Shown: positions 28,958 through 62,484 of the stretch, in pieces
How positions within the stretch are numbered: position 1 is the stretch's first letter
How the letters are laid out: each line of letters starts with the position of its first letter
Assembly: GCA_040954595.2 (NCBI GenBank)
Contig: CM082586.2
Location: forward strand, 7,037,337-7,101,336
Direction of reading: 5' to 3'
Source: Balanoglossus misakiensis
Lineage: Eukaryota > Animalia > Hemichordata
DNA: 64,000 bases
Translations under genes and position numbers: made by a program
Notes under the pieces: generated by a model
What the model was told of the DNA's origin: nothing
Database searches by the model: none
What the model saw: the letters and a program-made list of their open reading frames with translations, nothing else

Positions 28958-29145
28958 AGGTATACGGTCACCTCCAATTTACATACGCCCATATATGTCA
29001 AAAATGGCGTATTTTAGTTCTAAAGAACATACATGTATGGTGGCGCCCTTTTTTCGCGTGTGCCACCCCCTGAAAATCTGTGATTGGCTAGATCTCAATT
29101 TGCCATGGTAACTCTAGCTATATTTGCATAGGTGACCGTATACCT
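28958..29145. mobile_element. MITE family A copy with perfect TIRs
   Basis: ttaa|AGGTATACGGTCACCT...AGGTGACCGTATACCT|ttaa. Confidence 0.9.
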
Positions 29146-37654: not shown

Positions 37655-38768
37655 TGTATCAAAACTTGATAGGGGTCGTTGAGGTTTGGGATTCACGGGT
37701 CTGCCATGTTTGTACTCCACAGCATATACTTCTGACGGCTACACACTAAGTGGTGACGTCAGTCATTTCTGCTTTCATCACAACAGCAGACGTTTCCAGC
37801 TTTTTCAAATTTCACCAGCTCTCCAATGGGGGGGGGGGGCAAACTCATGAATAATTGCGTGTACAATCAAGTCTTTTGTGTTGTTATAATACATTTTAAA
37901 GCAATAAACGACATGTGATGTGAATTACTATCGTTTCTGAGAACGCCTTTATTCTTATATTTTGTCAATTGCCATGAGGTCATTCTGACTGACCTCCCGG
38001 CTCCATACAATTGTGCAACAAAGCGTTTACAGTGCAGTTTCTCAATGTGATATATATACAGATTATCACAGCCATTCTGCGAACAAACACATGATACACC
38101 ACGGTCCAGAGGCTGACGAATAAATTGTTGATATTTAAAAACAGACACAATACATACATAGTGGATTGTTCAACAAATACCCTGATCAAATGACTGACAT
38201 TCGATCTGATAAACTGAATGCACAACCCCCATTTCAGTGAAGGGTGTGGATAAGGAAATATGACAGGTTTTGATTGATACAGAAAATAAAACTGTGAAAT
38301 CATCTAAAAAATACAAGTACTTCCAACAACCTCGTGTAAATGACATAAATATTTCTCAAAGAAATAAAATGCTAATTTTTGGGAATAAAATAACAAATAC
38401 AAAATAAAATCTATGTTATGGATATTTTTTACATACATCTCAGTGAACATATTTACAGTTGTTTATACAGGTTTCTCTCAAATATATACATGTAACAAGC
38501 TATAGCCTATATTTGGCCATTTTCTGGTGGCACATTCCTATTCTTAAATTCTTTTGTCGTTCTGGACAAAATATAAAATTATTCAAATATTTTAACTTTC
38601 CATCACACCCAGTAAGTAGAAAGTATAAATGTGTCATGTTGTGAAAGAAAATAAAGCTTCCACTGTGTATGGCTAGGTTTAGATAACTAGGGTAGGTCCA
38701 GTTATAACACCAAACTCTTGAAAATGACACAAATATGAATCTTGAATGTGTATTTTGTTGTCGTTTGA

Positions 38769-41700
38769 TTATACAACGTGAGAAGAACCCTGAGTGTTGT
38801 AGGTTATAACGTGACGGTGAAGTTTATTGGTCTCAAAGTAAACCTGGTGATCCCAACTGCTGCCTGGCTTTAACTGCTGTGTTACCTTTGCCTGGATCTC
38901 AGCTGATTCATCTTTACTGCAGTTACGGTACCAGACTCTTACATCAAGTGTGATCGATTCTAATGTACTCTGTTGTGTTTCTATTGCCCTGCTAACAGGT
39001 ACCGATACTGTATCTATCAGAGAAGATACAAGAGAGGAGTTGAGCACTTTTATCTTCAAATGTTTGAGAATCCGGTTTTCTTTCAGCGCTGCCACAATGC
39101 GTTGCCCTGTCTCATCTCTTTCTATCGTTTTATAATACAGTGTCAGTGACCGCGCGTGCTTGTTTCTCTTTATGAAACGACACACGATTTCGATATCTTT
39201 GTCTTCTAAGTTTCCAATGCCTACATCGCTCAAGATCATGTTTGTTGATAGTGTATCACATATTTCGGAGTAGAATGCACCTTCCCTACACGCAAAATTG
39301 AGATGTAGGGATTTCAAGCATGGACTCACATTCAACAGAGCTGTATTTAGTTTTGGTATCGAATTTTCCGAGGGGTACGAATTGATTAAATACAGCTTTA
39401 CTGACTCCGCTTTTTCACATTTTCGTATAAAGTAGCACACGTGTTCCATTGATGATTCACTGATTTCCCCCCTCGAGGTATGAACCCACCTGACTTCAAG
39501 GGGACTATTTTGAGTCAGTGTGGCAATATGTTCAAATGAGTCTACAACTGTGAAAAAGGTAACACATTGCAGTGATTTGTTTTCTGAAATTCCTTCAAAG
39601 AGACGTTTTACCTCTGCGGTAAAACTGCTATTGCTTTCATCAGTGGATAGATATAAACACAGTTTTTCTCCTCTGAAGTTTGTAACAACGTCTAATAGAT
39701 TCGTAATTTCTTCCGGTGTCCACTTCCCGAATTTGTATAAAGTAAGATTTTTTATATTAATTGTATATTCTTTCAGTATTTTTACGATGCTTTTCATTTC
39801 TTTAGATTTTAGCCATAACAACCTTAGAGTGACCCTTGCTTTTCCAACAATTTTCAGCATTTGCATGAAATAATGAACGCCGAGACTTTCCTTTAAGTTT
39901 ACTATCACACTGTATAAATCTTCAAACGTGTTCGAATAAAGTCTAAATTCATCACCAATATTGTTGAACAATATACACTCTTTTCTTAATTCATCCAAGC
40001 AATTAATGAGCTCTTCAGCATGCTTTGATTCACACAAACACTTTATACAGTAGCCCCAGACATTTGACAGCTTTTGTATCTTTACACAATCTGATGATGA
40101 CAGTATCTCGTTGTGTATACCTTGTATTTTGTTGTTGAATTTCCCAAAAAACAATTCACCTTCCTTTTTGCTTACTATACCAGAAAGAAACTTCAAAACT
40201 GGAAAGAATTTTCGAGGCGACTTTAGGAAATTATCAAGAATTTTGGTTTCGTTTGAAATCTTCAACTGTATCTGAATATATAATGCTGTGAAATATTCAA
40301 GCCACGTCTTGTGATAGAAGAAATACATTTGTTTAGATTTTCTGATTGCGTGCCCAAGGTCTTTAACTAGTAATCCAAGGTCTAGAGATCGTTCAGAGGA
40401 AATATCCGATTGCTCGAAATTCATTTTGTTTTCTTTATATGCTTTGTAAGCATCGTAAGCCAGGGCATCCCTGTCATGTATGACGTCATCGGGTATCTCA
40501 TCGTTGTGAAGATCAATGTTATTTTTGATGCAATATCTTTTCAAAATACATTGAAGAATATCAGAATACAATTCAGCGAGCGTCTCAGGGAAATATTCGC
40601 CTTCTAACCTGTGGTATTCCCACAAAATGCAGAGAAATGAAACGTGTAAGGGGTTTTTCAGAAGGTCTTTAATAAAATCTTTACTGTCTTTTTGCCGTTT
40701 TAATTCATTAATCAATGATTCTCCTTTTTCACTGTCACTTCCGAAATATTTGCCAATGTATTCGTTTGTACGCTTTTTAGTAAACCCTTCCACTTTTAGA
40801 TACAAATCACATGTGTTCAAATACTTGTCACATAGATGTGGTCTCGTTGTTGCAAGAGCAGTACACCAAGAATATAATTCCTCGGAAATGAGTTTTGGAA
40901 TCTCAGAACTCTTCAACTTATCGTCGTTAATTTCGTCAAGCCCATCGCATAGAATTAACACGGACTTTTCATTTTGTTCAATCAGCTGTTCAAGCTCTTG
41001 CTTTGAAATACGAAATTTATCTGGTAAGAGCTGACTAAATATTTCATCAATCACTTTATCTTCTGTGACGTGTCTCATTTCCAGGAAGAATAGTAGTGTG
41101 AACTGCTCTAACTCACCACAAGACCAATCATAAGCTAGCTTTCTACAAAGTGTAGACTTGCCCATAGCTGGTGCGCCCTCTATCCTTATACGCCTAACAC
41201 CAGATGATTTAAACATATCATGGAGGTTTTTTAGAGTTGTACCAGCTTTCACTGTTCCTCTCTTCACTTCTTGTACCTTCAGTGTTGTGTATACTTCTTC
41301 TAAATTGAGCCGAATTTCTTCATTCCACGGTATCGGTAAGAGTTTAGAGTAATGTCGTTTGTACTTGTCTTTTAGGTATGTGCTCAACCGAGTCATTAGG
41401 CCTACATCTGGCGAGGGGCCAACTACAGGAGGAGAGAAACACGAAACATTTCCTGTTGATATAGTTTTTTCATAAGTACATTACACAATCTTGGGAGTAC
41501 CTGATAATTTTCGAATGCGAGTAAGTATAGGAAGGTGTAGTCTAATCACAACAATTCAATAAGCGTATTCCAGTAAGACGTAAAACGTAAATAATCCACC
41601 AAAAGACATTATTAACAACTTCAAAATGTCAAAGGTGGGCAACTTTATGACTAAAATATTCTTACAAGTACCAATTTAAGTATAGTTTTAAATTCTTAAT

Positions 41701-42688
41701 CCAATGTACCCATATTTTCTAAATCCATATTGTTACAATACCAAATTGTCATACATGTATCTGGATTTATGACTGCAACTGGTTGATGAAACAATACAAC
41801 TCTTGCATTGTATGCCGGTAAAGTATGTGGTTGGAGCCACATTGTCTCGATTTGAACACGACTTGCCCCCAAACAGTGCCTTTAAATTGTTAATACTTAC
41901 CTTGATGGACAGGACCATTCTTGAGAAATGTATTTGAGAGTAAGACCTGACCACTAATAATTAGCATATCTTCCAGATATTCTGTATTAGACTCGCTAAT
42001 TAGTTTCTTGTCAAGCAGTGCATCGAAGAAATCCATGGGTTCTTTAAGTTCACTCAAAGTTTTTGCAGGAATTTGGCCCCAACATAGCTTCTTTAAGTCA
42101 TGTAAGTTTTCTACGGAACAACAGAAAAAACAAAACATTAATAATTCTTTTATATTAGCCTGAACATTTCTAAACGCGTAGACGAGAAAAAGCTTCCCAA
42201 AGCCTAACTTCGAAACATTTGTGTCATATCCAAAATGGCCTCCAGATATAGTCAAAATACTATCACTTCCTCAAACTTTAGACGGTGAACCCGTACATTT
42301 CAAAGTCGGCTTGATATATTGCATGATTCAACTCATATACAGTTTCAGCTATGAATATTAATGAAAACAAGTGTTTGACGATGAAATCAAATTTTCAAGC
42401 CTTTAAAACTGTATGCTGTTCTTGATTTCGAACATTTTAACTGGCATACCGCATTTCAATTTACACCTGTGCTTTCAGACGGAACTGCACAAAACAGACG
42501 AACTGCCCGATGTACATCGACAGGGCGCAGCAGCTAGCAACCAAGGTTGAATAGCTCATGATCCACGTACCATTTGTAATCTCCTTTGACAACAAAAACA
42601 GATTTTTTCTAAACGGGTTGACTCTTGGTCTCTTGCATTCAGGTTCTCCCGAGGTCGTCGGTTCTGCATAGCCCTGTCCGGACGCCAT
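38769..42688 (-). CDS. NLR-A: DED-NACHT-LRR-like receptor; exons 42688-42571, 42110-41901, 41422-38769
   Basis: Exons 1-2 (118+210 nt, phase 1) encode a death-effector-like domain (PFRKNLFLLSKEIT..LKKLC..IP..P.DFF.AL..LIS.SNTEYLEDML). Exon 3 has Walker A GAPAMGKST, Walker B LILCDGLDE, NPL, winged-helix FYHKTWLEYFTALY, and degenerate RI-like LRRs (L.ENRILKHLKI). Confidence 0.88.
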
Positions 42689-43725
42689 GATCGTTTTCTG
42701 CCACAAGCAGCAGCTTCGTCCAATTGAGTTGTGCAATGTTTGCCTTACCGCACTCCCTGAGTGTGTTGTTGGGCAATAAAGTTATTTATGATACACATCC
42801 TGGTTAATCATTACACTGATTTTAATGTGAAACTCAACAAACTCCAATGCAGAATCTGAAGTAGTGCGATAACTCATATTTTGTTGTTTGTTGGCTCGAA
42901 GAAGACAAGTTTCTTCCCTGGATTTTGTTGGGGAACTCACAAGACATGAAAAACGCCCTTGATGTAAATTAATAAGAGCCTAAATCTGAGGATAACTGCA
43001 TGAAATACCAAAGTTGAATCTGACAAAAAAAACACTTGACACAGTTCCGGAGCCTAACGCACTAGCCATCAGCGCAACACACCCTAGAGCCAGGTGTGTT
43101 ATCAGAGGTCACTTTGTAACCTCACCTTACAAAGGTTTAAGTACACATTAATTAAAATAAACAGTGGCGCATACAATTACATTTATTTACCCATATATAT
43201 CACCATGTGTTGACGACAAATTTATTGTACAATATTATGTGATTTTTGCAAATATTTAAATTTTAGGCAAGGAATGGTTGGACAGACACCCACTCACTCA
43301 CAAAGTTTTCATATAAAATCAGTGCTCTTTATTTAAAAAAAGAGAATTCTCCATATATTTGGGTAATTTATGAAACAGTTCTGGTATTGAAAACCCCCAG
43401 AATCAAGAATACATCCATCTATTATTACCTTCAGCAAATATTTTCATTTCAATTGTACCAAGATCTATACCTAAAACACTAAGGATACCAATGAAATAGT
43501 ATTTCAACAGACCCACCCTAACTTTGCTCGCTTATTTCATAAAAGAAACATAGAGTACAACAATAATGCAGTGACAGTAATTATTACAGCGGTACTAAAC
43601 TAGTGAGAGTTTGCGACACTTCGAAATGCTCCAAGGGAAAAACATGCAAGTCTGACTGTGAGGGCAGTGTTCATACAAATATCGAAGGTCATGCAGGAAC
43701 CTCTTCTTTTTTGTGTGTGGATAAT

Positions 43726-44159
43726 TCAACCACCTGAACGCCCTCGTCGACGGGAGTTTGTACTTCAAGCACTTCATGCGCTGGCTACACCTCTTCCCAC
43801 TGGACCAGATCTTTCTCATCGACGCCGAAGTCATCAAAAAGCACCCGTCCCGAGAGCTGCAGCGACTGGAAAATTTCCTGGGCATCGCGCCTTTCTTCGA
43901 GGACACCCGTTTTGTTTTCGACGAACAACACGGCAAGTACTGCCTGAGTTTTCCGCAGAATTTGTGCGTGAAAAGTAAAAGCAAACAAAAGGCCAAAGGG
44001 AAGACGTCGAGCAAGGAACAGGAGAAAGCCTTGAACTTGGAGAAAGAAGTGCCCGAAAAACTGAAAGCGCAACTTTACGATTATTTCGAACCGTACGACC
44101 AGATGTTGGCAGAAAAATTCAATCAAAGTTTATCTTGGCGGCAAAGCAAGGGATTATAG
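43726..44159 (+). pseudogene. 5'-truncated duplicate of HS3ST-like 3 (C-terminal about 140 codons)
   Basis: Near-identical to 37218-37654. It begins abruptly mid-gene at TCAACCACCTG and continues into a duplicate of the 3' flank. Confidence 0.9.
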
Positions 44160-45175
44160 TGTATCAAAACTTGATAGGGGTCGTAGAGGTTTGGGATTCA
44201 CGGTTCTGCCATGTTTGTACTCCACAGCATATACTTCTGACGGCTACACAATAAGTGGTGACGTCAGTCATTTCTGCTTTCATCACAACAGCAGACGTTT
44301 CCAGCTTTTTCAAATTTCACCAGCTCTCCAATGGGGGGGGGGCATACTCATAAATAATTGCGTGTACAATCAAGTCTTTTCTGTTGTAATAATACATTTT
44401 AAAAGCAATAAACGACATGTGATGTGAATTGCCATCGTTCCTGAGAGCGCCTTTATTCTTATATTTTGTCAATTGCCATGAGGTCATTCTGACTGACCTC
44501 CCGGCTCCACACAATTGTGCAACAATGCGTTTACAGTGCAGTAATTCTCAATGTGATAGATTTACAGATTATCACAGCCATTGTTCGAACAAACACATGA
44601 TACACCACGGTCCAGAGGCTGACGAATAAATTGTTGATATTTAAAAACAGACACAATACATACATAGTGGATTGTTCAACAAATACCCTGATCAAATGAC
44701 TGACATTCGATCTGATAAACTGAATGCACAACCCCCATTTCAGTGAAGGGTGTGGATAAGGAAGTATGACAAGTTTTGATTGATACAGAAAATAAATCTG
44801 AAATTATCTAAAAAATACATGTACTTCCAACAAACTCGTGTAAATGACATAAATATTTCTCAAAGAAATAAAATGCTAATTTGTGGGAATAAAATAACTA
44901 ATACAAAATAAAATCTATGTTATGTATATTTCTTACATACATCTCAGTGAACATATTTACAGTTGTTTAAAAAGGTATCTCGAAAATATATACATGTAAC
45001 AAGCTATAGCCTATATTTCGCCATTTTCTGGTGGCACCTTCCTATTCTTAAATTATTTTGTCGTTCTGGACAAAATGTAAAATTATTCAATTTCAACTGT
45101 TTCCATCACACACAGTAAGTAGAAGGTATAAATGTGTCATGTTGTGAAAGAAAATAAAGCTCCCACTGAATATGG

Positions 45176-48100: not shown

Positions 48101-49459
48101 TTTGCATTCATTCATACATTAATAAAAAAGACGAGGTCTTTTTTATTAATTCTTACCTTGATGAACAGGACCATTTTTGAGAAATCTTTCCGAAAGTGTG
48201 ACCAGACCAACACAAAGTAGCATCTGTTCTAAGAACTTTGTATCAGACTGGTTAATGAGATTCTGATCAATCAGTGCATAGAATAAATCCAGGGGTCCTT
48301 TCAGGCCACACGCCTTATTTGCAGGAATTTTGCCCCTGCATAAATCCTTTAAGCGGTGAAAGTTTTCTGATGAACAACAGAAAAAGCCGATTATTAGTAT
48401 GACCATAAAATCAACATACAGTGTAATGATAATGTTGGTATGTCTGTCTCGTTAATTTATGTATTATTCATGCCTTGGACTTGAAGAACTTGCTACAACG
48501 ACGCGGCGATGAAACACGATTTCAGCCACAGTCGTTTTGGAGTTGGGTCGTATATACACGGCGATCGTAAATACACGGCGATCCTGTACTAGGCGATCGC
48601 CGTGTATATACGACCCAACTACCAAGCGACTGTGATTTCAGCAATAAACTTTAATTCTATCGAATCCCACACAACAGTCAAAATTGATATTTAGCGTGGC
48701 ATGTGCATTTTGCATACGGGCGCTTTGGAAGCAAAGCGGACAACGCTAGATAGACCTAAGTGCAATTCAAACACGAATACTGTAGGCCAACAATTCAACA
48801 TAACCACAGAACAGGGAGTGCTGTGGGGTCAAAGTCAACTTCTTTATTGCATGTTCATTTGAAGGCTACTTATGGCAAAACTTCCCGTTCAGGTTCGTAA
48901 ACGTCGAGGGTTGTGATGCCCTGTTCTGCACTCATCGCCAGAATTTCAAAATAAATTTTATGAAACACGTACGCGTCCTGGTTAATCATTAAATCGATTT
49001 GTTAAACTCGCCGAAATTTCAATGGAGAATTTCAAAAATCGTCCGCCTAAACGACACGATAAATCTCGGTTTAAGCACTGGTCCAGTTATTTTCTTCCAT
49101 GTATTACAGTTTGTAAAGCCTGAACAAGCGAACAAATTCAAAAGTGTACACCAGAAAAAAAACTTCCCATATCTTCAAAATCTCTGTCTCTTTAGTACCA
49201 TTATCCTTGAACCAAAATGGCACCCAGTGAAAAAAAACACTTCAACATACTGTAGACGGCGAACCGTCATATATGAAATTGAAAACAAGAATTTTGGCGA
49301 TGAAACCAATTTCAAGCCTTTTAAAATCGTGATCCACGTACCATCTGTAATCTCCTCCGACAGCAAAAACAGATTTCTGTAAAAAGGGTCGACACTTCGT
49401 CTCTTGCATTCAGGTTCTTCTGAGGTCGTCGGTTCTGCATAGCCCTGTCTGGACGCCAT
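45176..49459 (-). CDS. NLR-B: DED-NACHT-LRR-like receptor; exons 49459-49342, 48366-48157, 47937-45176
   Basis: Same exon sizes and phases as NLR-A, intact ORF, identical Walker A/B. The C-terminus is extended by loss of the stop codon. Confidence 0.88.
48527..48634. mobile_element. 108-bp palindromic MITE with 8-bp TSD in NLR-B intron 1
   Basis: ATTTCAGC|CACAGTCG..AGTTGGGTCGTATATACACGGCGATCG...CGATCGCCGTGTATATACGACCCAACT..CGACTGTG|ATTTCAGC. Confidence 0.85.
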
Positions 49460-49945
49460 GATCGTTTATGGTAAACACCCTGGTTAATCATTAAATTGGT
49501 TTTAATGTGAAACTCTGCAAATTCCAATGAAGTATCTCAAGTAGTGCGAGAACAAGTTTTATTAATTGCAGCTTGGTGGCTCGGAGAAGAAAAGTTTCAT
49601 TCCCTGAATTTTGTTGGGGAAGGCACAAAACAGGATAAACGTCATTGATATAAATAATCAGCATGAAATACCAAAGTCGAAATTTGATTAAAAACAAACA
49701 CATGAAAATATTCCTGAGGGTAACGAACTATCGTAGCAACATAGACTAAATTCAGATGTGTTATCATGGGTGCCTATGTAACCTCTCCTGGTGAAGGTTA
49801 AAGTTCTTTTAAACAAACAATGACGCATACAATTACACTTATTTACTCATGACATCACCACCTGTTGCTGTCATTCATCAAAATAATTTTTATATTCACT
49901 ATACAATTTATAAAATTTATTGTACAATATTATGTAATTTTTGCA

Positions 49946-50850
49946 CCGGACGCCATGATCGTTTTCTGTCACAAGCAGCAGCTTCGTCCAATTGAGTTGT
50001 GTAATGTTTGCCTTACCGCACTCCCTGAGTGTGTTGTTGGGTAATAAAGTTATTTATGATACATATCCTGGTTAATCATTAAACTGATTTTAATGTCAGT
50101 GAAACTCAACAAATTCCAATGCAGAATCTGAAGTAGTGCGATAACTCTTATTTTGTTGTTTGTTGGCTCGAAGAAGGCAAGTTTCTTCCCTGGATTTTGT
50201 TGGGGAACTCACAAGACATGAAAAACGCCCTTGATGTAAATTAATAACAGCCAAAATCTGAGGATAACTGCATGAAATACCAAAGTTGAATCTGACAAAA
50301 AAAAAACTTGACACAGTTCCGGAGCCTAACGCACTAGCCATCAGCGCAACACACCCTAGAGCCAGGTGTGTTATCAGAGGTCACTTTGTAACCTCACCTT
50401 ACAAAGGTTTAAGTACACATTAAAATAAACAATGACGCATACAATTACATTTATTTACCCATATATATCACCAACTGTTGACGACAAATTTATTGTACCT
50501 TGCAAATATTTAAATTTCAGGCAAGGAATGGTTGGACAGACACCCACTCACTCACAAAGTTTTCATATAAAATCTGTGCTCTTTATTTAAAAAAACGAAT
50601 TCTCCCCATATTTGGGTAATTTATGAAACAGTTCTGGTATTGAAAACCCCCAGAATCAAGAATACATCCATCTATTATTACCTTAAGCAAATATTTTCAT
50701 TTCAATTGTACAAAGATCTATACCTAAAACACTAAGGATACCAAAGAAATAGTATTTTAACAGACCCACCCCGGCTAACTTTGCTCGCTTCTGTTATGAA
50801 CAATTCACACACATGAAGTACAATAATTATGCAGTGACAGTAATTATTAA
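49946..50850 (-). repeat. Duplicate of the NLR-A start codon, 5' UTR and upstream region (42678-43590), stacked upstream of NLR-B
   Basis: Near-identical sequence starting CCGGACGCCATGATCGTTTTCTG. Only the first few codons of exon 1 are retained. Confidence 0.9.
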
Positions 50851-50852
50851 AA

Positions 50853-51032
50853 CAGAATTTGTGCGTGAAAAGTAAAAGCAAACCAAAGGTCAAAGGGGAC
50901 ACGTCGAGCAAGGAACAGGAGAAAGCCTTGAACTTGGAGAAAGAAGTGCCCGAACAACTGAAAGCACAACTTTACTATTATTTCGAACCGTACGACCAGA
51001 TGTTGGCAGAAAAATTCAATCAAAGTTTATCG
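50853..51032 (+). pseudogene. Second, shorter fragment of HS3ST-like 3
   Basis: QNLCVKSKSK..EKALNLEKEVPEQLKAQLY.YFEPYDQMLAEKFNQSLS, followed by the same 3' flank. Confidence 0.88.
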
Positions 51033-52229
51033 TTTGGGATTCACGGTTCTGCCATGTTTGTAGTCAACAGCATATATTTCTGACGGCTACACAATAAGTG
51101 GTGACGTCAGTCATTTCTGCTTTCATCACAACAGCAGACGTTTCCAGCTTTTTCAAATTTCAGCAACACGTGGGGGGGGGGGAACTCATAAATAATTGCG
51201 TGTACAATCAAGTCTTTCGTGTTGTAATAATACATTTAAAAGCAATAAACGACACGTGATGTGAATTACTATCGTTTCTGAGAACGCCTTTATTCTTATA
51301 TTTTGTCAATTGCCATGAGGTCATTTAAACTGACCTCCCGGCTCCACACAATTGTGCAACAACGCGTTTACATTGCAGTAATTCTCAATTTGATAGATTT
51401 ACAGATTATCACAGCCATTCTGCGAACGAACACATGATACACTTCGGTCCAGAGGCTGAACCGTGAAGAATAAATTGTTGCTATGTGGAAACAGACACAA
51501 TACTAGACTCTCTCACAGCCCACGGTTCGCTACGCCCCCTCAACCGTTTGGCAAGGGAGAAGCACCGTTTGGTGTTGTGTAGCTAACCTAACACAATACA
51601 TACATAGTGGATTGTTCAACAAATACCCTGATCAAATGACTGACATTCGATCTGATAAACTGAATGCACAACCCCCATTTCATAGAAGGGTGGGGATATG
51701 GAACTATGACAGGTTTTGATTGATACAGAAAATAAAACTTAAATTATCTAAAAGATACATGTACTTCCAACAATCCATGTAAATGACATGTATATTTCTT
51801 ATAGAATAAAATGTTAATTTGTAGGAATCCAATAATTAATACGAAATTAAATGTTATATACATCTCAGTGAACATATTTACATTTACATCATATTTACAC
51901 AGTAAGTGTATAGGCCTGAATGCCTCATGTTGCAAAAGAAAAGAAAACAAAGCCACTGTTTATGGCTTGGTTTATATACCTATGAAGTTAATCCAGTTAT
52001 CATAACTCCAACTTGAATTCTGAAAAATGACACAAAATAGCCTATAACTACTCTTGAAGTTATTTTGTAGTTCTTGACAAAATATACAATAATTCAAATA
52101 TTTGAAATGTTTCCATATATAACACACTGTAAGAAGAATGTATAAATACCACACGTTGTAAAGGTAAAAAAAAACGAAGCTCCCACTGTGCATGGCTAGG
52201 TTTATATACCTAAGAGTAGATCCTCATAA

Positions 52230-52956
52230 GGGACCGTTCAGTTTTTACGGCTGGGGGGGGGGGCGGCAAGTTTCAAAATCAGGCCGACCCCCCTTCACCC
52301 AGAACCAAAAAAATGATGACCCCCCCCCTTTGACAGGTCAAAAAAATATGATGCCCCCCCCCCACGCCGAAAACATTCGCCGTCCTGATCCTATGTACAC
52401 TGTATGCAATAAAGGGAATGAGGCTCCCCACACGTCAATTATAAATTTCTTAAAGTAATTGAAGTATATAATAGTATATCATTGCAATAAAGAAATCAAT
52501 GAACAAATTAAAATGACAAGTCAATATAATAGTTGCTAGAATCGGTAAAACAAGAAAAGTGGGGGATGGGTTAAGAAAAGTTTGTAAAATACAGTGCTCA
52601 AAGTTGCATTTTAATGAACTCTAAAGCAAAATAACTCAATGTTGGGAGGACCAATTTAACTTTTTTCCACTCCACCCAAATAAGCATCGGGGTGGGGTGG
52701 CAAGAAGTCTGCCCTGGTACACTAGACAAACCAGCCAATAAATTAAATGTAGCGAAGAATGGAGGGGGTGGGTGTGGGAGGGGGTAATTTTCTAAAATAA
52801 AGGCGCAAAACTGCAATTTTGTGGACTCAAAAGAAAAAGTTCGGTGGCAAAAGTATGTGACCCACCCCTGAACGTTTAAAAAAAAGATGACCCCCTTTGG
52901 GACTTTAAAATTTAAGTGACCCCCCCCCCCCCTGGATTTTGCCGTAAAAACTGAAC
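52230..52956. mobile_element. PIF/Harbinger-like non-autonomous element with a truncated right TIR
   Basis: taa|GGGACCGTTCAGTTTTTACGGC ... GCCGTAAAAACTGAAC|taa. Homologous to 56448-57541. Confidence 0.8.
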
Positions 52957-53046
52957 TAACTCCAAACTCTGAGAAATGACACAAAATATAACGACTCTTG
53001 AATTGTATTTTGTTGTCTTATTTGATTACACAACGTGAGACGAACC

Positions 53047-56000
53047 CTAATTCTTGTAGGTTATGACGTGACGGTGGTGTTCGAGTGCTAAGTAAATCTG
53101 GTGATTCCAATTGTCTGGCTTTGACTGTTGTGATACCATTGTCTGGATTTCAGATGATTCATCTTTACTGCAGTTGTGAGCTGGTACATCAATTGTGATT
53201 GATTTTAATTTGCTCTGTCGTGTTTCTATTGCTCTACTAACAGGTATCACTATTTTGCGTATCAAGGCTGATACAACATTTTCCAAGAGGTCCACCCCTT
53301 TTATCTTCAAATGTTTGAGAGTCGCGTTTTGCTTTAGTGCTTTCACAATGCGTTGCCACGTCTCATATGTAGCTAACTGTGCAAGGTACAGTGTCAGTGA
53401 CCGTGCGTACTTGTTTTGCTCAATGAAACAGCACACGATTTCAGTTTCTGTGTCGTTGAATGTTCCTATGCCTACATCTCTCAAGGTCATGTTTGTTGAC
53501 AGTGTAGCATATATTTCGGAGTGTAATGCAGCTTTGCTGCACGCGACGGTGAAGTGTAGGGATGTCAAGCATGGTCGACTCACATTCACCACAGCCATAT
53601 TTAGATTTTGTATCATATTTTCCGAGCACCCTTCGCGCAAATGCAGCTTTAATGACTTAACTTTTTCACATTTTCCAATAAATTTGCACAGGCTTTCAAT
53701 TGATGATTCGCTTAGTTCGCTTATCGAGAAGGGCCGGTCCGTAACACACCTGACTTCGGGAGGACTACTTTGAGTTAGTGTGGTCAAATGTGCAAATAAG
53801 TCTGCATCTATTACAAAGGTAACACGTTTCAATGATTTGCTTCCTGAAACCCCTTCGAAGATGCGTTTTACCTCTGCTGTATAAATGCTACTGCTTTCAT
53901 CAGTGCGTATTGATAAACAAAGATTTTCTCCTCTGAAGTTTGTAACAACGTCTGCCAGATCTTTTATTTCTTTCAGCTCCCTGTGAGTTTCTTTGTCAAC
54001 AGTGAGACTGTTTACATTTATTGTAAATTCTTCCAGTATTCGTTCAGTGTTGCTCATTTTCGTTGAGAAAGATCCATGCAGCTGTAGCTCTTTAAGATTG
54101 ACACATGCTTTGCTACCAATTTTCAACATTTGTTTCAAATTATGAATGCCTACATTTTTCTTATTCAACTGTACCAACATATTTGTATTTAAGCCTTGCA
54201 ATTCTTTCAAATAAGGTACATCATCATAATTAGGAACGTACAATATACTTTCTTTACTTAATTCATCCAAGCATTTAATGAACTCTGTGGCATGCTTTGA
54301 TTCACACAAGCACTTTATACAGTAGCCCCAGACATATGACAGATGCTTTGATAGTTTTTGCCTCATGAAGCAATCTGATGATGGCACCGTCATTTTGTGT
54401 ATATCTTGTATTTTCTGGTTGAATTTCTTAAAAAACAATTCACCTTCGTTCTTGCTTACTATGCCAGAAAGAAACTTCAAAACTGGAAAGAACTTTTTAG
54501 GATACTTTAGCAAACTATCAAGAATTTGGGTATCGTTTGAAGCTTTTAGCTGGAGATGAATGTACAATGCTGTGAAATATTCAAGCCATGTCTTGTGATA
54601 GAAAAAGTACATTTGTTTAGATTTTCTGATTGTGTGTCCCAGGTCTTTAACCAGTAATCCAAGGTCTAGAGATCTTTCAGAGGAAATATCCGATTGCTCG
54701 AAATTCATTTTGTTTTCTTTATATGCTTTGTAAGCATCGGACGCCAGGGCATCCCTGTCACGTATGACGTCATCGGGTATCTCATCGTTGTGAAGATCAA
54801 TGTTATTTTTGATGCAATACCTTTTCAAAATACATTGAAGAATATCAGAATACAATTCAGTGAGCGTCTCAGGGAAATATTCGCCTTCTAACCCGTGATA
54901 TTCCCACAAAATGCAAAGAAATGAAACGTGTAAGGGGTTTTTCAGAAGGTCTCTTATAAAATGCTTACTGCCACTTTGTCTTTTTAATTCGTTAATCAAC
55001 GATTCTCCTCTTTCACTGTCACTACTGAAATATTTGCCAATATATTCCTCTGTACGTTTTGCAGTAAACCCTTCCACTATTAGATACAAATCACATGTGT
55101 TCAAATACTTGTCACATAGATGTGGTCTCGTAGTTGCAAGAGCAGTACACCAAGTATATAATTCCTCGGAAATGAGTTTTGGAATCTCAGAACTCTTCAA
55201 CTTATCGTCGTTAATTTCGTCAAGCCCATCGCATAGAATTAACACGGAATTTTTATTTTGTACAATCAGCTGTTCAAGCTCTTGCTTTGAAATACGGAAT
55301 TCATCCGGTAAGAGCTGATTAAATATTTCATCAATCACTTTATCTTCTGTGACGTGTCTCATTTCCAGGAAGAATAGTAGTGTGAACTGCTCTAACTCAC
55401 CACAAGACCAATCGTGGGCTAGCTTTCTACAAAGTGTAGACTTGCCCATAGCTGGTGCGCCCTCTATCCTTATACGTCTAACATCAGATGAGTTAAACAT
55501 ATCGTGGAGGTTTTCAAGAGTTGTACCAGCTTTCACTGTTCCCCTCTTCACTTCTTGTACCTTCAGCGTTGTGTATACTTCTTCTAAATTGAGCCGAATT
55601 TCTTCATTCCACGGTATCGGTAAGAGTTTAGAGTAATGTCGTCTGTACTTGTCTTTTAGGTATTGGCTCAACCGAGTCATTGGCGAGGGGCCAACTAGAG
55701 AAGGAGAGAAACACGAACGATTTTAAGTCGATTTTGTTTTGTGCTACAAATACATAAACGTGTAATCCCGGGGAGTACCCAACTATTTGCATATGGGGGT
55801 CAGTATAGGAAGGCGGACCATTCTACGTACGTCGAACAGAAATTGCACATTTGTTCTACTTTACATTCATTCATTCATTCATTCATTCATTCATTCGTTC
55901 GTTCGTTCGTTCGTTCGTTCGTTCGTTCGTTCGTTCGTTCATTCATTCATTCATTCATTCATTCATTCATTCGTTCGTTCGTTCGTTCGTTCGTTCGTTC

Positions 56001-58906
56001 GTTCATTCATTCATTCATTCATTCATTCATTCATTAATTCATTCATTCATTCATAGGAATTTGCTCAACCGAGTCTGTGCCATCGCCTCAACATCTGGCG
56101 AGGGCCAGCTAGGGGGAGGAGAAACACGAAACATGTTCTGTCGATATTATTTTGCACCTCACAACAATTGGAAAACCATGATATAGTATTTCAGTCTTAG
56201 CTACTTAAGTATTTATATATCAAGTTCTTTACACTCTGTAATAAGCCTACACATTACGTGTACTGGAGAAGGCTTATTTACAAGTCTGTGGTTTTTGCGT
56301 ACCAGTAGACCCGTGTGCAAATGTCCACTATCTGGCTTGGAGTGGGAATTGTCAGACTTCTGGTATGTTCAGAAAAACTGCCAGTTTGCATTCGCGCATA
56401 TTTTTTTTTCTCGAACCGACACAGTAGACAGTAGACAATGTTAGTAAGGGACCGTTCAGTTTTTACGGCCGGGGGGGGGGGTCGGCAAGTTTGTGTCATC
56501 GGTTTTCAAAATCAGGCCGACCCCCCCCCCCTTCACCCAGGACCAAAAAATGATGACCCCCTTTGACAGACCCAAAAATATGATGACCCCCCCCCACGCC
56601 TAAAACATTCGCCGTCCTGATCCTATGTACACTGTATGCAATAAAGGGAATGAGGCTCCTCACACCTCTATTATAAATTTCTTAAAGTATTATTGAAGTA
56701 TATAATAGTATATCGTTGCAATAAAGAAATCTATGAACAAATTAAAATGACAACTCAATACAATAGTTGCTAGAATGGTAAAACAAGAAAAGTGGCGGGG
56801 GTGGGCGTGGGAGGGGGTGCTCAAAGTTGCATTTTAATGAACTCAAAAGCAAATTAACTCAATGTTAGGGAGGACAAATTTTAATTTTGCCACTCCACTC
56901 AGAGTAAGCATCGGGGTGAGGTGGCAAGAAGTCTGCCCTGGTACACTAGACAAACCAGCGAATAAATGAAATGTGGCGAAGAATGGAGGGGGTAGAAAAT
57001 TTTGTAAAAATATGTAGCTCAAAGTTGCATTTTAATGAACTCAAAAGCAAATTATCTCATGTTTGGGAGGACCAATTTTACTTTTGCCACTCCACTCAAA
57101 GTTAGAAGATTTGGCGTCATCTTCGTCATGACATCATTTATAAAACTTCTAGTATATAGAAGATGCAGCGCGAAACTATCAGTTATGCGTAATGGTTTAA
57201 ACCATTATTCTACTTTATGTATATACTTTGTTAAATATTATCATTGGTGGGGTTGGGGTGGCAAGCACTCTGCCCTGGTACACTAGACAAACCAGCAAAA
57301 AATGAAATGTGGCGGAGAATGAAGGGGGTGGGTGTGGGAGGGGGTGTCCAAAATTTTGTAAAATAAAGGGCGCGAAACTGCAATTTTGTGGACTCAAAAG
57401 CAAAAGTTCGGTGGCAAAAGTATGTGACCCCCCCTAAACGTTTAAAAAAACCAGATGCCCCCCCCCCTTTTGGACTTCAAAATTTAAGTGACCCCCCTGG
57501 ATTTTGCCCCCCCCCCCCGGCCGTAAAAACTGAACGGTCCCTAAATGCTCCTATGAAAGAGATTTTGATTGGAAATCAAGGCGATGACATATACACTTTT
57601 ATTGCAAGAAGCAAATGCAACAGACGTCTAGATTTTATCACCCCTGCCTGAATGTCATAAACATTAAAATCGGAATACTACATGTGTTATATCCATATGC
57701 AGATATGTAGGGAGAGTTGAATTGTCACAACCTTCAACAAGTATATTTAAGTGGTCCGACAAAACGCAAAAAATCTATCGAAAGACACTAAAATAATCAA
57801 GACATTGTTGACTCAATAGTTTAATGAATACACATTTAGACTACATTGTTAATATTCCAAATTAACATTTCAATGACATACATATGTGTGGAATTATTAC
57901 AACGGTAATTGAAACCTACAACTCTTGCATTGTATGTAAATTAGGTGGTTGGAGCCACTACACAGTGTCACCATTTGCACTTTACACACAAATTGCCCCA
58001 AAATAGTGCCTTCGTTCTCTGTAACTGAACACTTACCTTCACGAACAGGACCACTTTTGAAATATCTCTCCGAAAGTGGGGCCAGACCAACATAAAGTAA
58101 CATCTCTTCCAATAACTTTGTATTAGACTCGCTTATTAGCTTGTGATCAATCAGTGCATTGAATAAATCTAACGGTTCTTCAAGCCGGCTCACCGTTTGC
58201 GCAGGAATTTTGTCGCCACACAATCTCTTTAAGCGGCGAAGGTTTTCTTCGGAACAACAGAAAAAAACATTGTGAATATGAATGTAAAATCAGCATACAT
58301 CCTATAATGCTGTTTGTTAGGTCTAGGGTTAAATTTATAGTCATGCCCCTAATTGAATATTAGTGGCTACAATGTTGACTGAAAAATAACAATTTATACT
58401 TCTGTCCAACACAACAATCAATATGGTTATTAGCGTGGCCTAAATGACACGACTCATTTCGGTAAGAAAAGTAGTAGTGAAAAAGTATGACTTCAAAATC
58501 TTTGTGTCTTAACCATATGGCAACCAGTAAGTGTAATCACCGGATCAAATTTGTGACGATGAACCCTTACATTTAAATTCTGCTTGAAATTCAACACGAT
58601 TCAACTAATAGTTTCAACTATGACTATCAATGTTGGCAATAATTAACTTGATTTCGAATGTTTTAAATGACACATAACTCACTTCAAATTTACACCTGTG
58701 GTGTCAGTTGCAAAGGCACCAAGCAGGCGAACCACCCAATGTAAACTGAAATGCAACCAAGGAAGTGGTCATATTCTGCACGTACCATCTGTAATGTCCG
58801 CCGACAACAAAAACAGATTTTGTCGAAACGGGTCGACTGTTCTTGGTCTCTTGCATTCAGGTTCTTCTGAGGTCGTCGGTTCTGCATAGCCCTGTCCGGA
58901 CGCCAT
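53047..58906 (-). CDS. NLR-C: DED-NACHT-LRR-like receptor; exons 58906-58786, 58246-58037, 55694-53047
   Basis: Intact exons (121, 210 nt and a large exon 3), conserved NACHT, and an LRR region strongly diverged from A and B. Confidence 0.88.
55864..56054. repeat. Compound (TTCA)n/(TTCG)n microsatellite in NLR-C intron 2
   Basis: Alternating blocks of TTCA and TTCG. The matching site in NLR-B has only about 3 units (near 48105). Confidence 0.95.
56448..57541. mobile_element. PIF/Harbinger-like non-autonomous element in NLR-C intron 2
   Basis: TAA|GGGACCGTTCAGTTTTTACGGCCGGGG ... CCCCGGCCGTAAAAACTGAACGGTCCC|TAA, with internal tandem sub-repeats. Confidence 0.88.
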
Positions 58907-59145
58907 GATCGTTTTCTGCCACAAGCAGCAGCTTCGTCCAATTGAGTTGTTATTTATGATACACATCCTGGTTAATCATTAAACTGATTTTAATGTGAAA
59001 CTCAACAAATTCCAATGCAGAATCTGAAGTAGTGCGATAACTCATATTTTGTTGTTTCTTGGCTCGAAGAAGACAAGTTTCTTCCCTGGACTTTGTTGGG
59101 GAACTCACAAGACATGAAAATCGCCCTTGATGTAAATTAATAAGA

Positions 59146-59235
59146 GTTCTTCTGAGTTCGTCGTTTCTGCATAGCCCTGTCTGGACGCCATGATCGTTCA
59201 CGGTTTATTATACACGCCCTGGTTAATCATTAATA
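59146..59235 (-). pseudogene. Orphan fragment of NLR exon 1 (MASRQGYAETTNSEE)
   Basis: GTTCTTCTGAGTTCGTCGTTTCTGCATAGCCCTGTCTGGACGCCATGATCG resembles the start of NLR-B exon 1. Confidence 0.8.
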
Positions 59236-60162
59236 TTGAGTCATCACATGGGAATGCCATTCCGGAGCCTAAATACTAGCCACCGTGGGTGACTCAGTGA
59301 GCTAATTTCAATAAATTTTAAACAAGGACGAGTCTATTGATACCCGGGTGACAATAGACACTTAAACAGCCTACAGTCATCTATTCTTATATTAAACCAC
59401 ATACATCGTCTACTGACGTCATTTGTAAAAATAATTTTATAACCCTATGATATTGTCATTCCACCTTTTAGTAACAATTCTTGAAAGTTGCTTTTCAACT
59501 GAATGTACTGACTCGGCTCCGCAGATGGCCAAGCTTGTCACCACCAATCTCCAAGGACTTCTAGAACTGGGCTTTTCAAGTCTGTCTTCAAGTTGCTTCC
59601 ATCCCAATCCCGAGTAGACATTTCGATACGACTAGCGTATCTAGATATAGATAAATCATGTCATAAGTAGTCACACAGTTTACATATATATATACTTCTG
59701 ACTGTGCTATGTTTAATATGTTTTAATTGTATCAAAACCAAACATTAGGTAAACGACATAAAATTTCATGTTGTAAAAGAAAAGAAAAGGATCCTACCGT
59801 GTATGACTACAAAGGATTAAGCTTATGATAATTGTGTTTATAGAATAGGTCTGTTAACAACAACTGCAATTAACACCGAAAAAAGACTATATTTTGCCAG
59901 TTTCTGGTAATTGCCTTTTCTTAAGTTATTTTGTAGTTCTTGACAAAATATACAATAATTCAAATATTTGAACTGTTTCCATATATAACACACCGTAAGA
60001 AGAAGGTATAAATGCCACACGTTGTAAAGGTAAAAAAAAACGAAGCTCCCACTGTGTATGGCTAGGTTTATATACCTAAGATAGGATCCAGTTATCATAA
60101 CTCTTTAACTAGTAATCCAAGTTCTAGAGATCTTTCAAAGGAAATATCCGATTGCTCGAAAT

Positions 60163-62484
60163 TCATGTTGTTTTCTTTATATGCTTTGTAAGAATCGGAA
60201 GCCAGGGCATCCCTGTCACGTCAGTGAGTGTCTCAGGGAAATAATCACCCTTTAACACGTGGTTTTCATACGAAATGCAGAGGAATGAAATATATAAGGG
60301 GTTTTTCAGAAGGTTTCCTGTAAACTTTTTTCTGTATCTTTTTCTTTTCAATTCCTTAATCAATGATTCTCCCCTTTCACTGTCACTACTGAAATATTTG
60401 CCAATGTATTCGTTTGTACGTTTTGCAGTAAAGCCTTCCACTTTTAGATATAAATCACATCTGTTCAAATGCATGTCACATAGATGTGGTCTTGTTGTTA
60501 CAAGAGCAGTACACCAACAATATAATTTCTCGGAAATGAGTTTTGAAATCTCAGAACTCTTCAACTTATCGCCGTTAATTTCGTCAAGTCCATCGCATAG
60601 AATTAACGTGGAATTTTCATTTTGTACAATCAGCTGTTTAAGCTCTTGCTTTGAAATACGGAAATCATCTGGTAAGAGCTGATTAAATATTTCATCAATC
60701 ACTTTATCTTCTGTGACGTGTCTCATTTCCAGGAAGAATAGTAGTGTGAACTGCTCTAACTCACCACAAGACCAATCATAAGCCAGCTTTCTACAGAGTG
60801 TAGACTTGCCCATAGCTGGTGCGCCCTCTATCCTTATACGTCTGACATCAGATGATTTAAACATATCATGGAGGCTTTTTAGAGTTGTACCAGCTTTCAC
60901 TGTTCCTCTCTTCACTTCTTTTACCTTCAGTGTTGTGTATACGTCTTCTAAATTGAGCCGAATTTTTTCATTCCACGGTATCGGTAAGAGTTTAGAGGAA
61001 TGTCGTCTGTACTTGTCTTTTAGGAATTTGCTCAATCTTGACATTACATCTGGCGAGAGGTCAACTAGAGGAAGAAAGAAACACAAAATATTTTCTTTAG
61101 ATTTTGTTCTGCCATAAATGCATGAACATTTAACCCCGGGAGTACCCCCTCTATTTACATATGGGTTCAAGTTTCCAAACGCGACACTTGGGCATCCAGA
61201 AAATTAACTCTGTGTGGGAAGATTACAATTATAAAAATTATTGTTATTCCAAACACAAACATTTTTACGAGACCTATTATAAATAAAATAAATAAATAGA
61301 GATAATCCATTTCAAAAGACACTAAAATAATCTCAACATTGTCAATAGTTTAATGAATACACATTTAGGTATGAACCCGTATGTGTATGCTAAATCCACA
61401 TTGTTACAATTCCAAATTAACATTTCAATGACATACATACAATGGTACTCGAAACCTACAACTCTTGCATCATGCATTGTTAGACTCTCTCACAGCCCAC
61501 GGTTCGCTACAACAAGCTCTTCACTGACGCGCCCTCAACCGTTTGGCAAGGGAGAAGCACCGTTTGGTGTTGTGTAGCCACACATGCAATCAGACCATAA
61601 GCCTGCATGGACGGCGAGAGGGGCTGTGAGAGAGTCTACATGCATTTTATGTAAATTAGGCGGAGCCACTACACAGTGTCACCATTTGCACTTTGCACAC
61701 AAATAGCCCCCAAAATAGTGCCTTCGTACTCTGTAACACTTACCTTCACGAACAGGACCACTTTTCAAATATCTCTCCGAAAGTGAGACCAGACGAACTG
61801 TATGTAGCATATTCTCCAAATTCGTTGTATCAGACTCGCTAATTAGACCCTGATCAATCATTGCATAGAATAAATCTAGGGGGTTTTCCAGGTCGGACAG
61901 CTTTTGATCAGGAATGTTTCCCTTACACAGCTGTTTTAAGCGGCGAAGGTTTTCTTCGGAACAACGGAAAAAAAACATTGTGAATATGAATGTAAAATCA
62001 GCATACATCCTATGATGCTGTTCTCATTTCGGTAAGAAAAGTAGTAGTGAAAAAGTATGACTTCAAAATCTTTGTGTCTTAACCATATGGCAACCAGTAA
62101 GTGACAGTAAGTGTAGTCACCGGATCAAATTTGTGACGATGAACCCTTACATTTAAATGTCTGCTTGAAATTCAACACGATTCAACTCATAGTTTCAACT
62201 ATGACTATCAATGTTGGCAATAATTAACTTGATTTCGAATGTTTTAAATGCCACATAACTCACTTCAAATTTACACCTGTGGTGTCAGTTGCAAAGGCAC
62301 CAAGCAGGCGAACCACCCAATGTAAACTGAAATGCAACCAAGGAAGTGGTCATATTCTGCACGTACCATTTGTAATCTCCTCCGACAACAAAAACAGATT
62401 TCTGTAAAAAGGGTCGACACTTGATCTCATGCATTCAGGTTCTTCTGAGGTCGTCGGTTCTTCATAGCCCCGTTTTGACGCCAT
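60163..62484 (-). pseudogene. NLR-D: truncated DED-NACHT gene lacking the winged helix and LRR (pseudogene or short decoy); exons 62484-62367, 61953-61744, 61064-60163
   Basis: Exons 1-2 and the P-loop domain are intact. A deletion at about 60220 frameshifts the ORF (..FPETLTD-VTGMPWL..*). A second deletion at about 60103 joins the remnant directly to the 3' flank. Confidence 0.8.
61481..61638. mobile_element. MITE with TAGACTCTCTCACAGCCC TIRs; partial copy at about 51503-51585
   Basis: 18-bp TIR with flanks CATGCATTGT / CATGCATTTT (about 10-bp TSD, possibly Academ- or MuDR-like). The paralogous site in NLR-C (about 57925) is empty. Confidence 0.8.

What the first reader, a model, noticed from the sequence alone, without database searches (positions are those of the whole stretch)
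38769..62484. Tandem array of four DED-NACHT-(LRR) NLR-type immune receptors whose DED exons are hidden from the ORF track
Seen: each long NACHT ORF is preceded by two small phase-1 exons (118-121 nt and exactly 210 nt) with intact GT-AG sites. They encode a death-effector-like domain, giving proteins of about 990-1030 aa in A, B and C. Known: DED-bearing NLRs occur in invertebrate NLR expansions but not as canonical mammalian NLRs, and DEDs couple to FADD/caspase-8-type death signalling. Inference: this is a young, actively evolving innate immune locus with three full receptors and one truncated member.
Basis: partly seen in the sequence, partly recalled or inferred. Interest (0 to 1): 0.8.

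Follow-up and report, generated by a model that had tools for sequence, protein, structure and literature searches.

The report
Acorn-worm immune receptors swap death modules
Four tandem genes, likely from an acorn worm, have splice-site-flanked exons that would join a cell-death signalling domain to a NOD-like receptor body (three complete, one broken by deletions); the design is already known from other invertebrates, but here the death-domain exons differ far more than the DNA around them, likely because copies have exchanged parts.

Summary
There are four minus-strand genes with 118-121 nt and 210 nt phase-1 exons and GT-AG introns: A 993 aa, B 1029, C 992, and D 409 (cut by two deletions). 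Exon 2 passes the Pfam DED cut-off in 4 of 4 copies. Exon 3 of A is predicted to fold as NACHT plus an LRR solenoid (NLRC4, NLRP3, NOD2 closest), though Pfam finds no LRR. The nearest relatives are Ptychodera flava DED-NACHT proteins; one RefSeq isoform pair differs by exactly the exon-2 segment. DED-NACHT NLRs are published from amphioxus, sea urchin and Nematostella, so the architecture is known.

'Young' is only half right. The locus is a mosaic: NACHT cores are alike (dS 0.07-0.16) and DED exons far apart (dS 0.32-0.74). C and D differ at 5 of 401 intron-1 bases but 49 of 210 exon-2 bases. All four DEDs lack the FL phenylalanine and the RxDL motif. Positive selection was not shown; transcription and binding partners are untested. 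Verdict: a real new member of a known kind, of moderate interest.

The parts
42571..42688 (-). Copy A exon 1 (118 nt from ATG; leader and DED helix 1)
   Evidence: helix-1 register to FADD
41901..42110 (-). Copy A exon 2 (210 nt, phase 1-1; rest of the DED)
   Evidence: Pfam DED 37.9 bits
38769..41422 (-). Copy A exon 3: NACHT (Walker A and B intact), helical domains, predicted LRR solenoid of about 11-12 beta-alpha units, stop; protein 993 aa
   Evidence: Pfam NACHT 4e-21; AlphaFold2 pLDDT 87; NLRC4/NLRP3/NOD2 matches
49342..49459 (-). Copy B exon 1 (118 nt)
48157..48366 (-). Copy B exon 2 (210 nt, DED)
   Evidence: Pfam DED 39.7 bits
45176..47937 (-). Copy B exon 3 (NACHT, LRR by homology to A); the stop used by A is lost, adding about 32 residues; protein 1029 aa
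58786..58906 (-). Copy C exon 1 (121 nt)
58037..58246 (-). Copy C exon 2 (210 nt, DED; AAG acceptor)
   Evidence: Pfam DED 42.4 bits
56053..56108 (-). Relic second copy of the exon-3 start inside intron 2 of C, with a strong acceptor and an early in-frame stop; splicing to it would give a 124-aa DED-only protein (untested)
53047..55694 (-). Copy C exon 3 (NACHT; most divergent LRR, 53-54% identical to A and B); protein 992 aa
62367..62484 (-). Copy D exon 1 (118 nt)
61744..61953 (-). Copy D exon 2 (210 nt, DED; AAG acceptor)
   Evidence: Pfam DED 48.0 bits
60096..61064 (-). Copy D exon 3, broken: 94-nt frameshifting deletion at 60222/60221 (stop at 60163), then a deletion of about 1.67 kb that removes HD2 and the LRR; protein 409 aa
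49946..50849 (-). A-type upstream region (92.6% identical to 42678-43586) ending in a broken exon-1 start at 49956, stacked in front of B's own, older upstream region (49465-49867, about 73% to A's)
58907..59238 (-). Stacked 5' ends of C: a broken B/D-type exon-1 start at 59191, followed by an A-type upstream piece
43723..44156 (+). 3' fragment of the neighbouring heparan-sulfate 3-O-sulfotransferase-like gene (97.0% to 37215-37648); marks the left end of repeat unit B
50853..51033 (+). Shorter 3' fragment of the same sulfotransferase gene (96.1%); left end of repeat unit C
36425..37654 (+). Intact sulfotransferase-like gene, tail-to-tail with copy A; the duplication breakpoints lie inside it
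   Evidence: Pfam Sulfotransfer_1; 72% to P. flava XP_070535056.1

Best explanation
This is a tandem array of four genes whose exons, as predicted from their splice sites, would encode DED-NACHT-LRR NOD-like receptors (three complete, one truncated by deletions); they likely act as intracellular immune sensors that would cluster their death effector domains to recruit a tandem-DED caspase or adaptor, and they have likely exchanged segments by unequal crossing-over and gene conversion. Shown: exon structure, open frames, DED and NACHT family matches, intact Walker A/B motifs, the segment-wise mosaic of divergence, and loss of the FL phenylalanine and RxDL motif. Predicted: the LRR solenoid (fold of A; B and C by homology). 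Inferred from vertebrate NLR and DED biology: ligand sensing at the LRR releases autoinhibition, NACHT domains form a ring, and the clustered DEDs nucleate a partner. Because the helix-1/4 face is kept and the FL face is lost, the DEDs would bind a partner one way, with the NACHT ring replacing FL-driven self-assembly. Exchange in the near-identical NACHT core would pair different DED modules with different LRRs.
For: DED in 4 of 4 and NACHT in 4 of 4 copies. The fold of A's exon 3 has pLDDT 87, pTM 0.82; top matches are NLRC4 (Foldseek E 2e-27; Z 35.8, rmsd 15.7 over 722 residues), NLRP3 (Z 29.7, rmsd 6.6 over 712) and NOD2, and ribonuclease inhibitor aligns to model residues about 475-874. 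16 of 48 homologues carry both DED and NACHT, 15 from P. flava and 1 from Glandiceps. P. flava isoforms XP_070533307/308 differ by exactly the segment matching exon 2. Mosaic: NACHT dS 0.07-0.16 against exon-2 dS 0.32-0.74 in 6 pairs; C/D intron 1 differs at 5 of 401 bases against 49 of 210 in exon 2; A/B sulfotransferase fragment 13 of 434 against 54 of 210 in exon 2; stacked broken exon-1 starts. The DED register to FADD is ungapped: positions 1, 4, 8 and 9 are invariant hydrophobic residues, position 25 is K/D/R/Q, and RxD is present in 0 of 4. FADD binds the FL-side surface of caspase-8 DED2 (PMC11074299, passages). P. flava encodes a tandem-DED protein named caspase-8-like (XP_070539021.1).
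Against: No ligand, partner or cell-death activity was tested. The splice model rests on sequence signals and on a relative's annotated isoforms, not on this organism's reads. Helix 1 lies in exon 1, which is itself more alike between copies (84-92% nt), so its conservation may reflect exchange and not constraint. At strictly four-fold sites the exon-2 versus core contrast is significant in 2 of 3 pairs (p 0.017, 0.008, 0.077) and LRR versus core in 2 of 3 (p 0.47, 0.015, 0.003); in C/D only 2 of 18 four-fold sites differ. The 223-aa P. flava tandem-DED isoform showed no caspase domain and its name is an automatic label. Vertebrate NLRs with oocyte structural roles are also among the fold matches, so fold does not fix function.
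Confidence: 0.65

Rival explanations
1. The DED differences are selected: each copy keeps a distinct helix-2/5 surface to escape or bait pathogen DED antagonists, or to pick its own partner, while flanks and NACHT are homogenised.
For: 7 of 86 DED-region positions carry four different residues in four copies; they map to FADD 25, 28, 38, 62, 65, 69 and 74. F25, L28 and D74 are named interface residues (PMC12403089, passages). In C/D, 48 of 49 exon-2 differences lie in nt 20-170, between near-identical flanks.
Against: dN/dS in exon 2 is 0.42-0.86 in 6 of 6 pairs. Silent sites differ too (12.7 of 48.8 in C/D), which points to exchange of old sequence and not to point-mutation selection. The borders of the island were chosen after seeing the data. 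A short conversion from an unseen paralogue gives the same picture. Four sequences have little power.
Confidence: 0.2
2. Birth-and-death debris: the DED is a decaying relic and the copies are drifting toward pseudogenes, signalling weakly or not at all.
For: D is broken twice; B has lost its stop and a proline that is nearly invariant in the family alignment; LRR dN/dS is 0.84-0.94; FL and RxDL are gone.
Against: Exon 2 is exactly 210 nt, open and flanked by intact splice sites in 4 of 4 copies despite dS up to 0.74; 27 of 69 columns are invariant; HD1-WHD dN/dS is 0.16-0.32; the same motif losses occur in 7 of 7 DEDs of the P. flava sister group, so they are old.
Confidence: 0.1
3. The receptors are real but serve a non-immune role, such as development, germ-cell scaffolding or self/non-self recognition.
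For: Oocyte NLRP complexes are among the fold matches; nothing here tests pathogen sensing.
Against: A lineage-specific tandem expansion with a variable LRR and a death-fold effector is the pattern reported for invertebrate immune NLRs (PMC3879445, PMC13012124, passages).
Confidence: 0.05
4. The copies are assembly duplicates of alleles.
For: Blocks of 92-97% identity exist between A and B.
Against: Four distinct exon-2 sequences at 67-78% identity, introns of different length that mostly align only in pieces, and copy-specific insertions and deletions; the window holds no N.
Confidence: 0.02

Closest known systems
Ptychodera flava DED-NACHT(-LRR) RefSeq models (XP_070533139-141, XP_070533307-309, XP_070533088, XP_070535287/288)
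   Same: Sister group in the NACHT tree (SH-aLRT 98, quick tree); same domain order; same boundaries for the DED cassette segment; same loss of the aromatic at FADD position 25 and of RxD (0 of 7); six lie on the same contig as the orthologue of the neighbouring sulfotransferase.
   Different: Only 48-49% identical over exon 3; longer N-terminal leaders and linkers in several; the window's four copies form their own clade in both NACHT and DED trees; close linkage to the sulfotransferase is not shown (accessions not adjacent).
DED-NACHT NLRs of amphioxus, sea urchin and Nematostella (Zhang et al. 2008, PMC2575513; PMC3879445; PMC13012124)
   Same: Same domain combination, absent from vertebrates; an amphioxus DED-NACHT cDNA was recovered, and direct triggering of apoptosis was proposed (passages).
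   Different: The amphioxus proteins nearest by NACHT carry PF18738, not DED, so the published DED-NACHT genes need not be orthologues. No passage I read describes exon layout, DED surface motifs or segment exchange in hemichordates.
Vertebrate NLRC4, NLRP3, NOD2
   Same: NACHT-HD1-WHD-HD2-LRR fold; Walker A and B intact.
   Different: DED in place of CARD or PYD; NACHT and all LRRs on one exon; 12-20% identity; LRRs not seen by Pfam.
FADD and caspase-8 DEDs
   Same: Best real matches among solved structures, ungapped register; hydrophobic helix-1 face kept.
   Different: F25 replaced by K/D/R/Q and the E-RxDL triad absent in 4 of 4; single DED fused to a sensor.
Zebrafish NLR-B30.2 family (Howe et al. 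2016, PMC4852459)
   Same: Gene conversion acting differently on different domains, with NACHT homogenised within groups (passages).
   Different: There N-terminal domains track NACHT groups and B30.2 shows high dN/dS; here the N-terminal effector exon is the most divergent part among neighbours with near-identical NACHT, and dN/dS above 1 was not found.

Membership tests
NLR (NACHT-LRR) | NACHT NTPase domain with intact Walker A and B | tested here: met
   PF05729 at 74-81 bits (cut-off 26.7) in 4 of 4; motifs intact in the alignment
NLR (NACHT-LRR) | HD1-WHD-HD2 after the NTPase | tested here: met
   Model of A aligns to the NLRP3 NACHT module, 419 residues at 3.2 A, Z 27.4; incomplete in D
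NLR (NACHT-LRR) | C-terminal LRR array | tested here: met
   By predicted structure of A only; B and C by 78% and 54% identity; Pfam below cut-off; single-sequence fold of C uninformative; deleted in D
NLR (NACHT-LRR) | N-terminal effector domain in the same transcript | tested here: inconclusive
   Frame, splice signals and P. flava isoform boundaries agree; junction reads from this organism were not available
NLR (NACHT-LRR) | Ligand- and nucleotide-dependent oligomerisation and immune output | not testable with these tools
   needs experiment
Death effector domain (PF01335) | Score above the curated cut-off | tested here: met
   37.9, 39.7, 42.4, 48.0 bits against 35.9, exon 2 alone
FADD/caspase-8-type DED | FL motif on helix 2 | tested here: not met
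   F/Y/W at FADD position 25 in 0 of 4 window DEDs, 0 of 7 sister, 9 of 12 other hemichordate NLR DEDs, 41 of 69 background DEDs; kin are not independent
FADD/caspase-8-type DED | E/D-RxDL charge triad | tested here: not met
   RxD in 0 of 4, 0 of 7, 6 of 12, 33 of 69
Vertebrate NLRC / NLRP subfamilies | N-terminal CARD or PYD | tested here: not met
   Exons 1-2 gave DED and no CARD or PYD match in Pfam

The most novel reading that the evidence does not exclude
An acorn-worm NLR subfamily uses its DED as a swappable, skippable cassette. Recombination re-pairs divergent DED modules with a shared NACHT engine and different LRRs, selection keeps the FL-side surface different in every copy, and exon-2 skipping or the relic acceptor yields DED-less and DED-only regulators. 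Diversity would then be generated on the output side of an animal NLR, through a one-way, FL-independent DED code.
Probability: 0.2. Interest if true: 0.7.

Novelty: new member of a known kind. Interest (0 to 1): 0.4.

Why it matters
DED-NACHT receptors have been proposed since 2008 to wire sensing straight to DED caspases, and I found no functional test of this in the papers searched. This array gives four natural DED variants on nearly the same NACHT core, a compact set for testing that proposal and for asking how a DED without the FL and RxDL motifs signals. It also shows how such genes are undercounted: the DED is split over two small exons and the LRRs fall under Pfam cut-offs. The architecture itself is not new.

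Tried and rejected
No whole genome is held, so copy number elsewhere and a donor for the C/D exon-2 core could not be sought. No RNA holder was listed for 38700-42800, so no reads were laid; this is no evidence on expression. Complex prediction of a P. flava NLR DED (P0004 27-113) with the P. flava tandem-DED protein (P0066 8-202), as stand-ins, gave no verdict: score 0.00, alignments not used. The single-sequence fold of C's C-terminal part had pLDDT 38 and was not used. The word-index search with exon 2 of D against longer proteins found nothing among 31 candidates; the HMMER search found 54, of which the 48 new ones were scanned and 46 carry DED. Pentatricopeptide hits for exon 2 are summed repeat scores of designed proteins and were rejected. 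Positive selection: no region had bootstrap support for pN above pS (highest 0.84); exposed LRR strand positions, picked by hydrophobic parity and not from coordinates, did not exceed silent divergence in 3 of 3 pairs (p 0.21, 0.59, 0.89). Microsynteny with P. flava: same contig, accession numbers not adjacent, so not shown. The careful NACHT tree did not finish; the quick tree is quoted (48 rows; 18 of 66 left out as redundant isoforms, short matches or sulfotransferases). The 92-row DED tree was mostly unresolved and does not name a partner. Paper searches for a description of this hemichordate subfamily or of its DED features and of effector-exon exchange found none. The library lacks most subscription journals, and I did not open supplements (TIAMMAt table 6; PMC13012124 datasets S5, S7), which may list hemichordate DED-NACHT genes.
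Full report
Observation. The four minus-strand NACHT reading frames are present. Motif search and splicing by coordinates give exons 42688-42571, 42110-41901, 41422-38769 (A, 993 aa); 49459-49342, 48366-48157, 47937-45176 (B, 1029 aa); 58906-58786, 58246-58037, 55694-53047 (C, 992 aa); and 62484-62367, 61953-61744, 61064-60163 (D, 409 aa). All 8 introns are GT-AG and phase 1; C and D use AAG at the first acceptor. Acceptors rank in the top 0.2-3.5% of AG sites and donors in the top 0.1-3.7% of GT sites on simple scores. Exon 2 passes the Pfam DED cut-off in 4 of 4 copies and NACHT in 4 of 4. D has a 94-nt frameshifting deletion and a second deletion of about 1.67 kb.

The C-terminus. Pfam gives no LRR above cut-off. 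AlphaFold2 on A's exon 3 with a 33-row alignment gives pLDDT 87 and about 11-12 beta-alpha units after residue 530 of the model. Foldseek ranks NLRC4, NOD2 and NLRP3 first. VIA-align gives NLRC4 Z 35.8 (rmsd 15.7, 722 aligned), NLRP3 Z 29.7 (6.6, 712), the NLRP3 NACHT module Z 27.4 (3.2, 419) and ribonuclease inhibitor Z 18.9 over model residues 477-872. The LRR is therefore predicted for A and carried to B and C by homology.

Relatives. The 16 best of 48 hits are Ptychodera flava proteins, the best 49% identical over 99% of the query; 16 of 48 carry both DED and NACHT. The window is thus likely an acorn worm other than the P. flava reference. Two isoforms of one P. flava gene differ by residues 91-159, the segment matching exon 2 at both ends. 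This supports the exon boundaries and shows annotated skipping; that such isoforms usually rest on RNA data is my own knowledge. Skipping exon 2 keeps the frame in A, B and C. The four copies form one clade in the NACHT tree (SH-aLRT 99, quick tree), sister to seven P. flava proteins, and one clade in the DED tree (96/98), so the expansion or its homogenisation postdates the split from P. flava. The orthologue of the neighbouring sulfotransferase lies on the same P. flava contig as six of the nearest NLRs, but adjacency is not shown.

History of the array. The repeat unit starts inside the sulfotransferase gene: 3' fragments 97% and 96% identical to it open units B and C. A and B are 91.6% alike over 4.3 kb of exon 3 and 3' flank and 92.6% over 0.9 kb upstream, yet their exon 2 differs at 54 of 210 bases and their introns barely align. 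B carries an A-type upstream region ending in a broken exon-1 start, followed by a second, older upstream region; C also has two stacked starts. Across six pairs dS is 0.07-0.16 in NACHT and 0.32-0.74 in exon 2; in the LRR it is 0.14 (A/B), 0.35 and 0.37. At four-fold sites only, exon 2 exceeds the core with p 0.017, 0.008 and 0.077. C and D differ at 5 of 401 intron-1 bases and 3 of 81 at the start of intron 2, but at 49 of 210 in exon 2, 48 of them in nt 20-170. Silent sites share in this (12.7 of 48.8 by counting all codons, but 2 of 18 at strict four-fold sites). The nearest copy changes along each gene. I infer repeated unequal exchange and conversion. The data cannot tell old DED modules with homogenised flanks from recent duplicates whose exon-2 core came from an unseen paralogue. 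Positive selection was sought and not found; dN/dS is 0.16-0.32 in HD1-WHD, 0.42-0.86 in exon 2 and 0.84-0.94 in the LRR.

The DED surface. Ungapped alignments to FADD carried through the family alignment put copy-A residue n at FADD n-22. Published FADD interfaces are M1, L5, L8, H9, L43 on the helix-1/4 face, F25, L26 and L28 on the FL face, and R71-D74 (PMC12403089, passages; PMC4558505, passages). In the window positions 1, 4, 8 and 9 are invariant V, F, L, F and 43 is M or L, while 25 is K/D/R/Q, 28 is W/R/G/K and RxD is absent. An aromatic at 25 occurs in 0 of 4 window DEDs, 0 of 7 sister DEDs, 9 of 12 other hemichordate NLR DEDs and 41 of 69 background DEDs from 45 proteins. These rows are kin, the loss may be one event, and the background includes some probable family members. 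Seven of 86 positions have four residues in four copies (FADD 25, 28, 38, 62, 65, 69, 74); that 62-69 face helix 2 is recalled, not from a call. Drift at freed surface sites could give this at such divergence; I did not simulate it.

Mechanism. From established NLR biology I infer sensing by the LRR, nucleotide-dependent NACHT oligomerisation and clustering of the DEDs. FADD recruits caspase-8 through the FL-side surface of caspase-8 DED2 (PMC11074299, passages). A DED that keeps the helix-1/4 face and has lost its own FL face fits a one-way nucleator whose clustering is supplied by the NACHT ring. This is a hypothesis; conservation of helix 1 is confounded by exon 1 being more homogenised. 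A P. flava tandem-DED protein labelled caspase-8-like was among the best non-NLR matches (E 2e-8) and is a candidate partner, but the isoform seen has no caspase domain. D could be a pseudogene or an LRR-less modulator, and C's relic acceptor could give a DED-only product; neither is tested.

Known and new. DED-NACHT NLRs are reported from amphioxus (with a cDNA), sea urchin and Nematostella (PMC2575513, passages), and DED is listed among invertebrate NLR N-termini (PMC3879445, PMC13012124, PMC2858798, passages). TIAMMAt's NLR section (PMC8662601, section 7 and passages) mentions acorn-worm CARD NLRs and does not mention DED NLRs. Domain-wise conversion is known in zebrafish NLRs (PMC4852459, passages), whereas coral tandem genes show little conversion (PMC10236652, passages). 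PMC11487272 (passages) added nothing. Eight searches found no description of this subfamily's exon layout, DED motif loss or exchange; supplements were not read. Earlier notes on this genome agree on an acorn worm and concern other families; a sequence look-up found none like this. Verdict: a real locus and a new member of a known kind, interest 0.4, with the DED-cassette mosaic as the part worth following.

Noticed in passing
window 30108-31259, 33324-34583, 36425-37654 (+): Three tandem single-ORF heparan-sulfate 3-O-sulfotransferase-like genes, about 66-70% alike in DNA. The PAPS-binding loop differs among them and from the motif I recall for vertebrate enzymes, so activity may differ.
   Followed up: partly
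window 23773-25377 and 25545-26915 (-): Two adjacent single-ORF ankyrin-repeat plus SOCS-box (ASB-type) genes.
   Followed up: no
window 55864-56108 (-): A TGAA/CGAA microsatellite of about 48 units directly follows the relic exon-3 start in intron 2 of copy C; that intron also holds internally repeated pieces shared with C's 3' flank (52227-52769 with 56445-56993, 86%).
   Followed up: partly
copy B exon 3, about 47170 (-): B replaces the proline of the HD1 motif that is nearly invariant in the 33-row family alignment; this could alter nucleotide binding (role recalled).
   Followed up: no
P0066 (XP_070539021.1, P. flava): A 223-aa tandem-DED protein whose first DED resembles the NLR DEDs (45% to copy C) and also lacks FL and RxDL; possibly a family-specific adaptor.
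   Followed up: partly
P0017, P0018, P0006: Hemichordate relatives with other layouts: PF02338 plus DED plus NACHT in Glandiceps and P. flava, and one P. flava protein with two DEDs.
   Followed up: no
window 11365-11562, 12951-13144, 21681-21876, 28951-29152; 18321-18503 with 20371-20553: A dispersed repeat of about 200 nt in four copies (83-89%) and a 183-nt inverted pair at 96%, probably small mobile elements.
   Followed up: no
window 3091-4002 (-): A 303-aa acidic, low-complexity open frame with no Pfam match, probably an exon of a larger gene.
   Followed up: no
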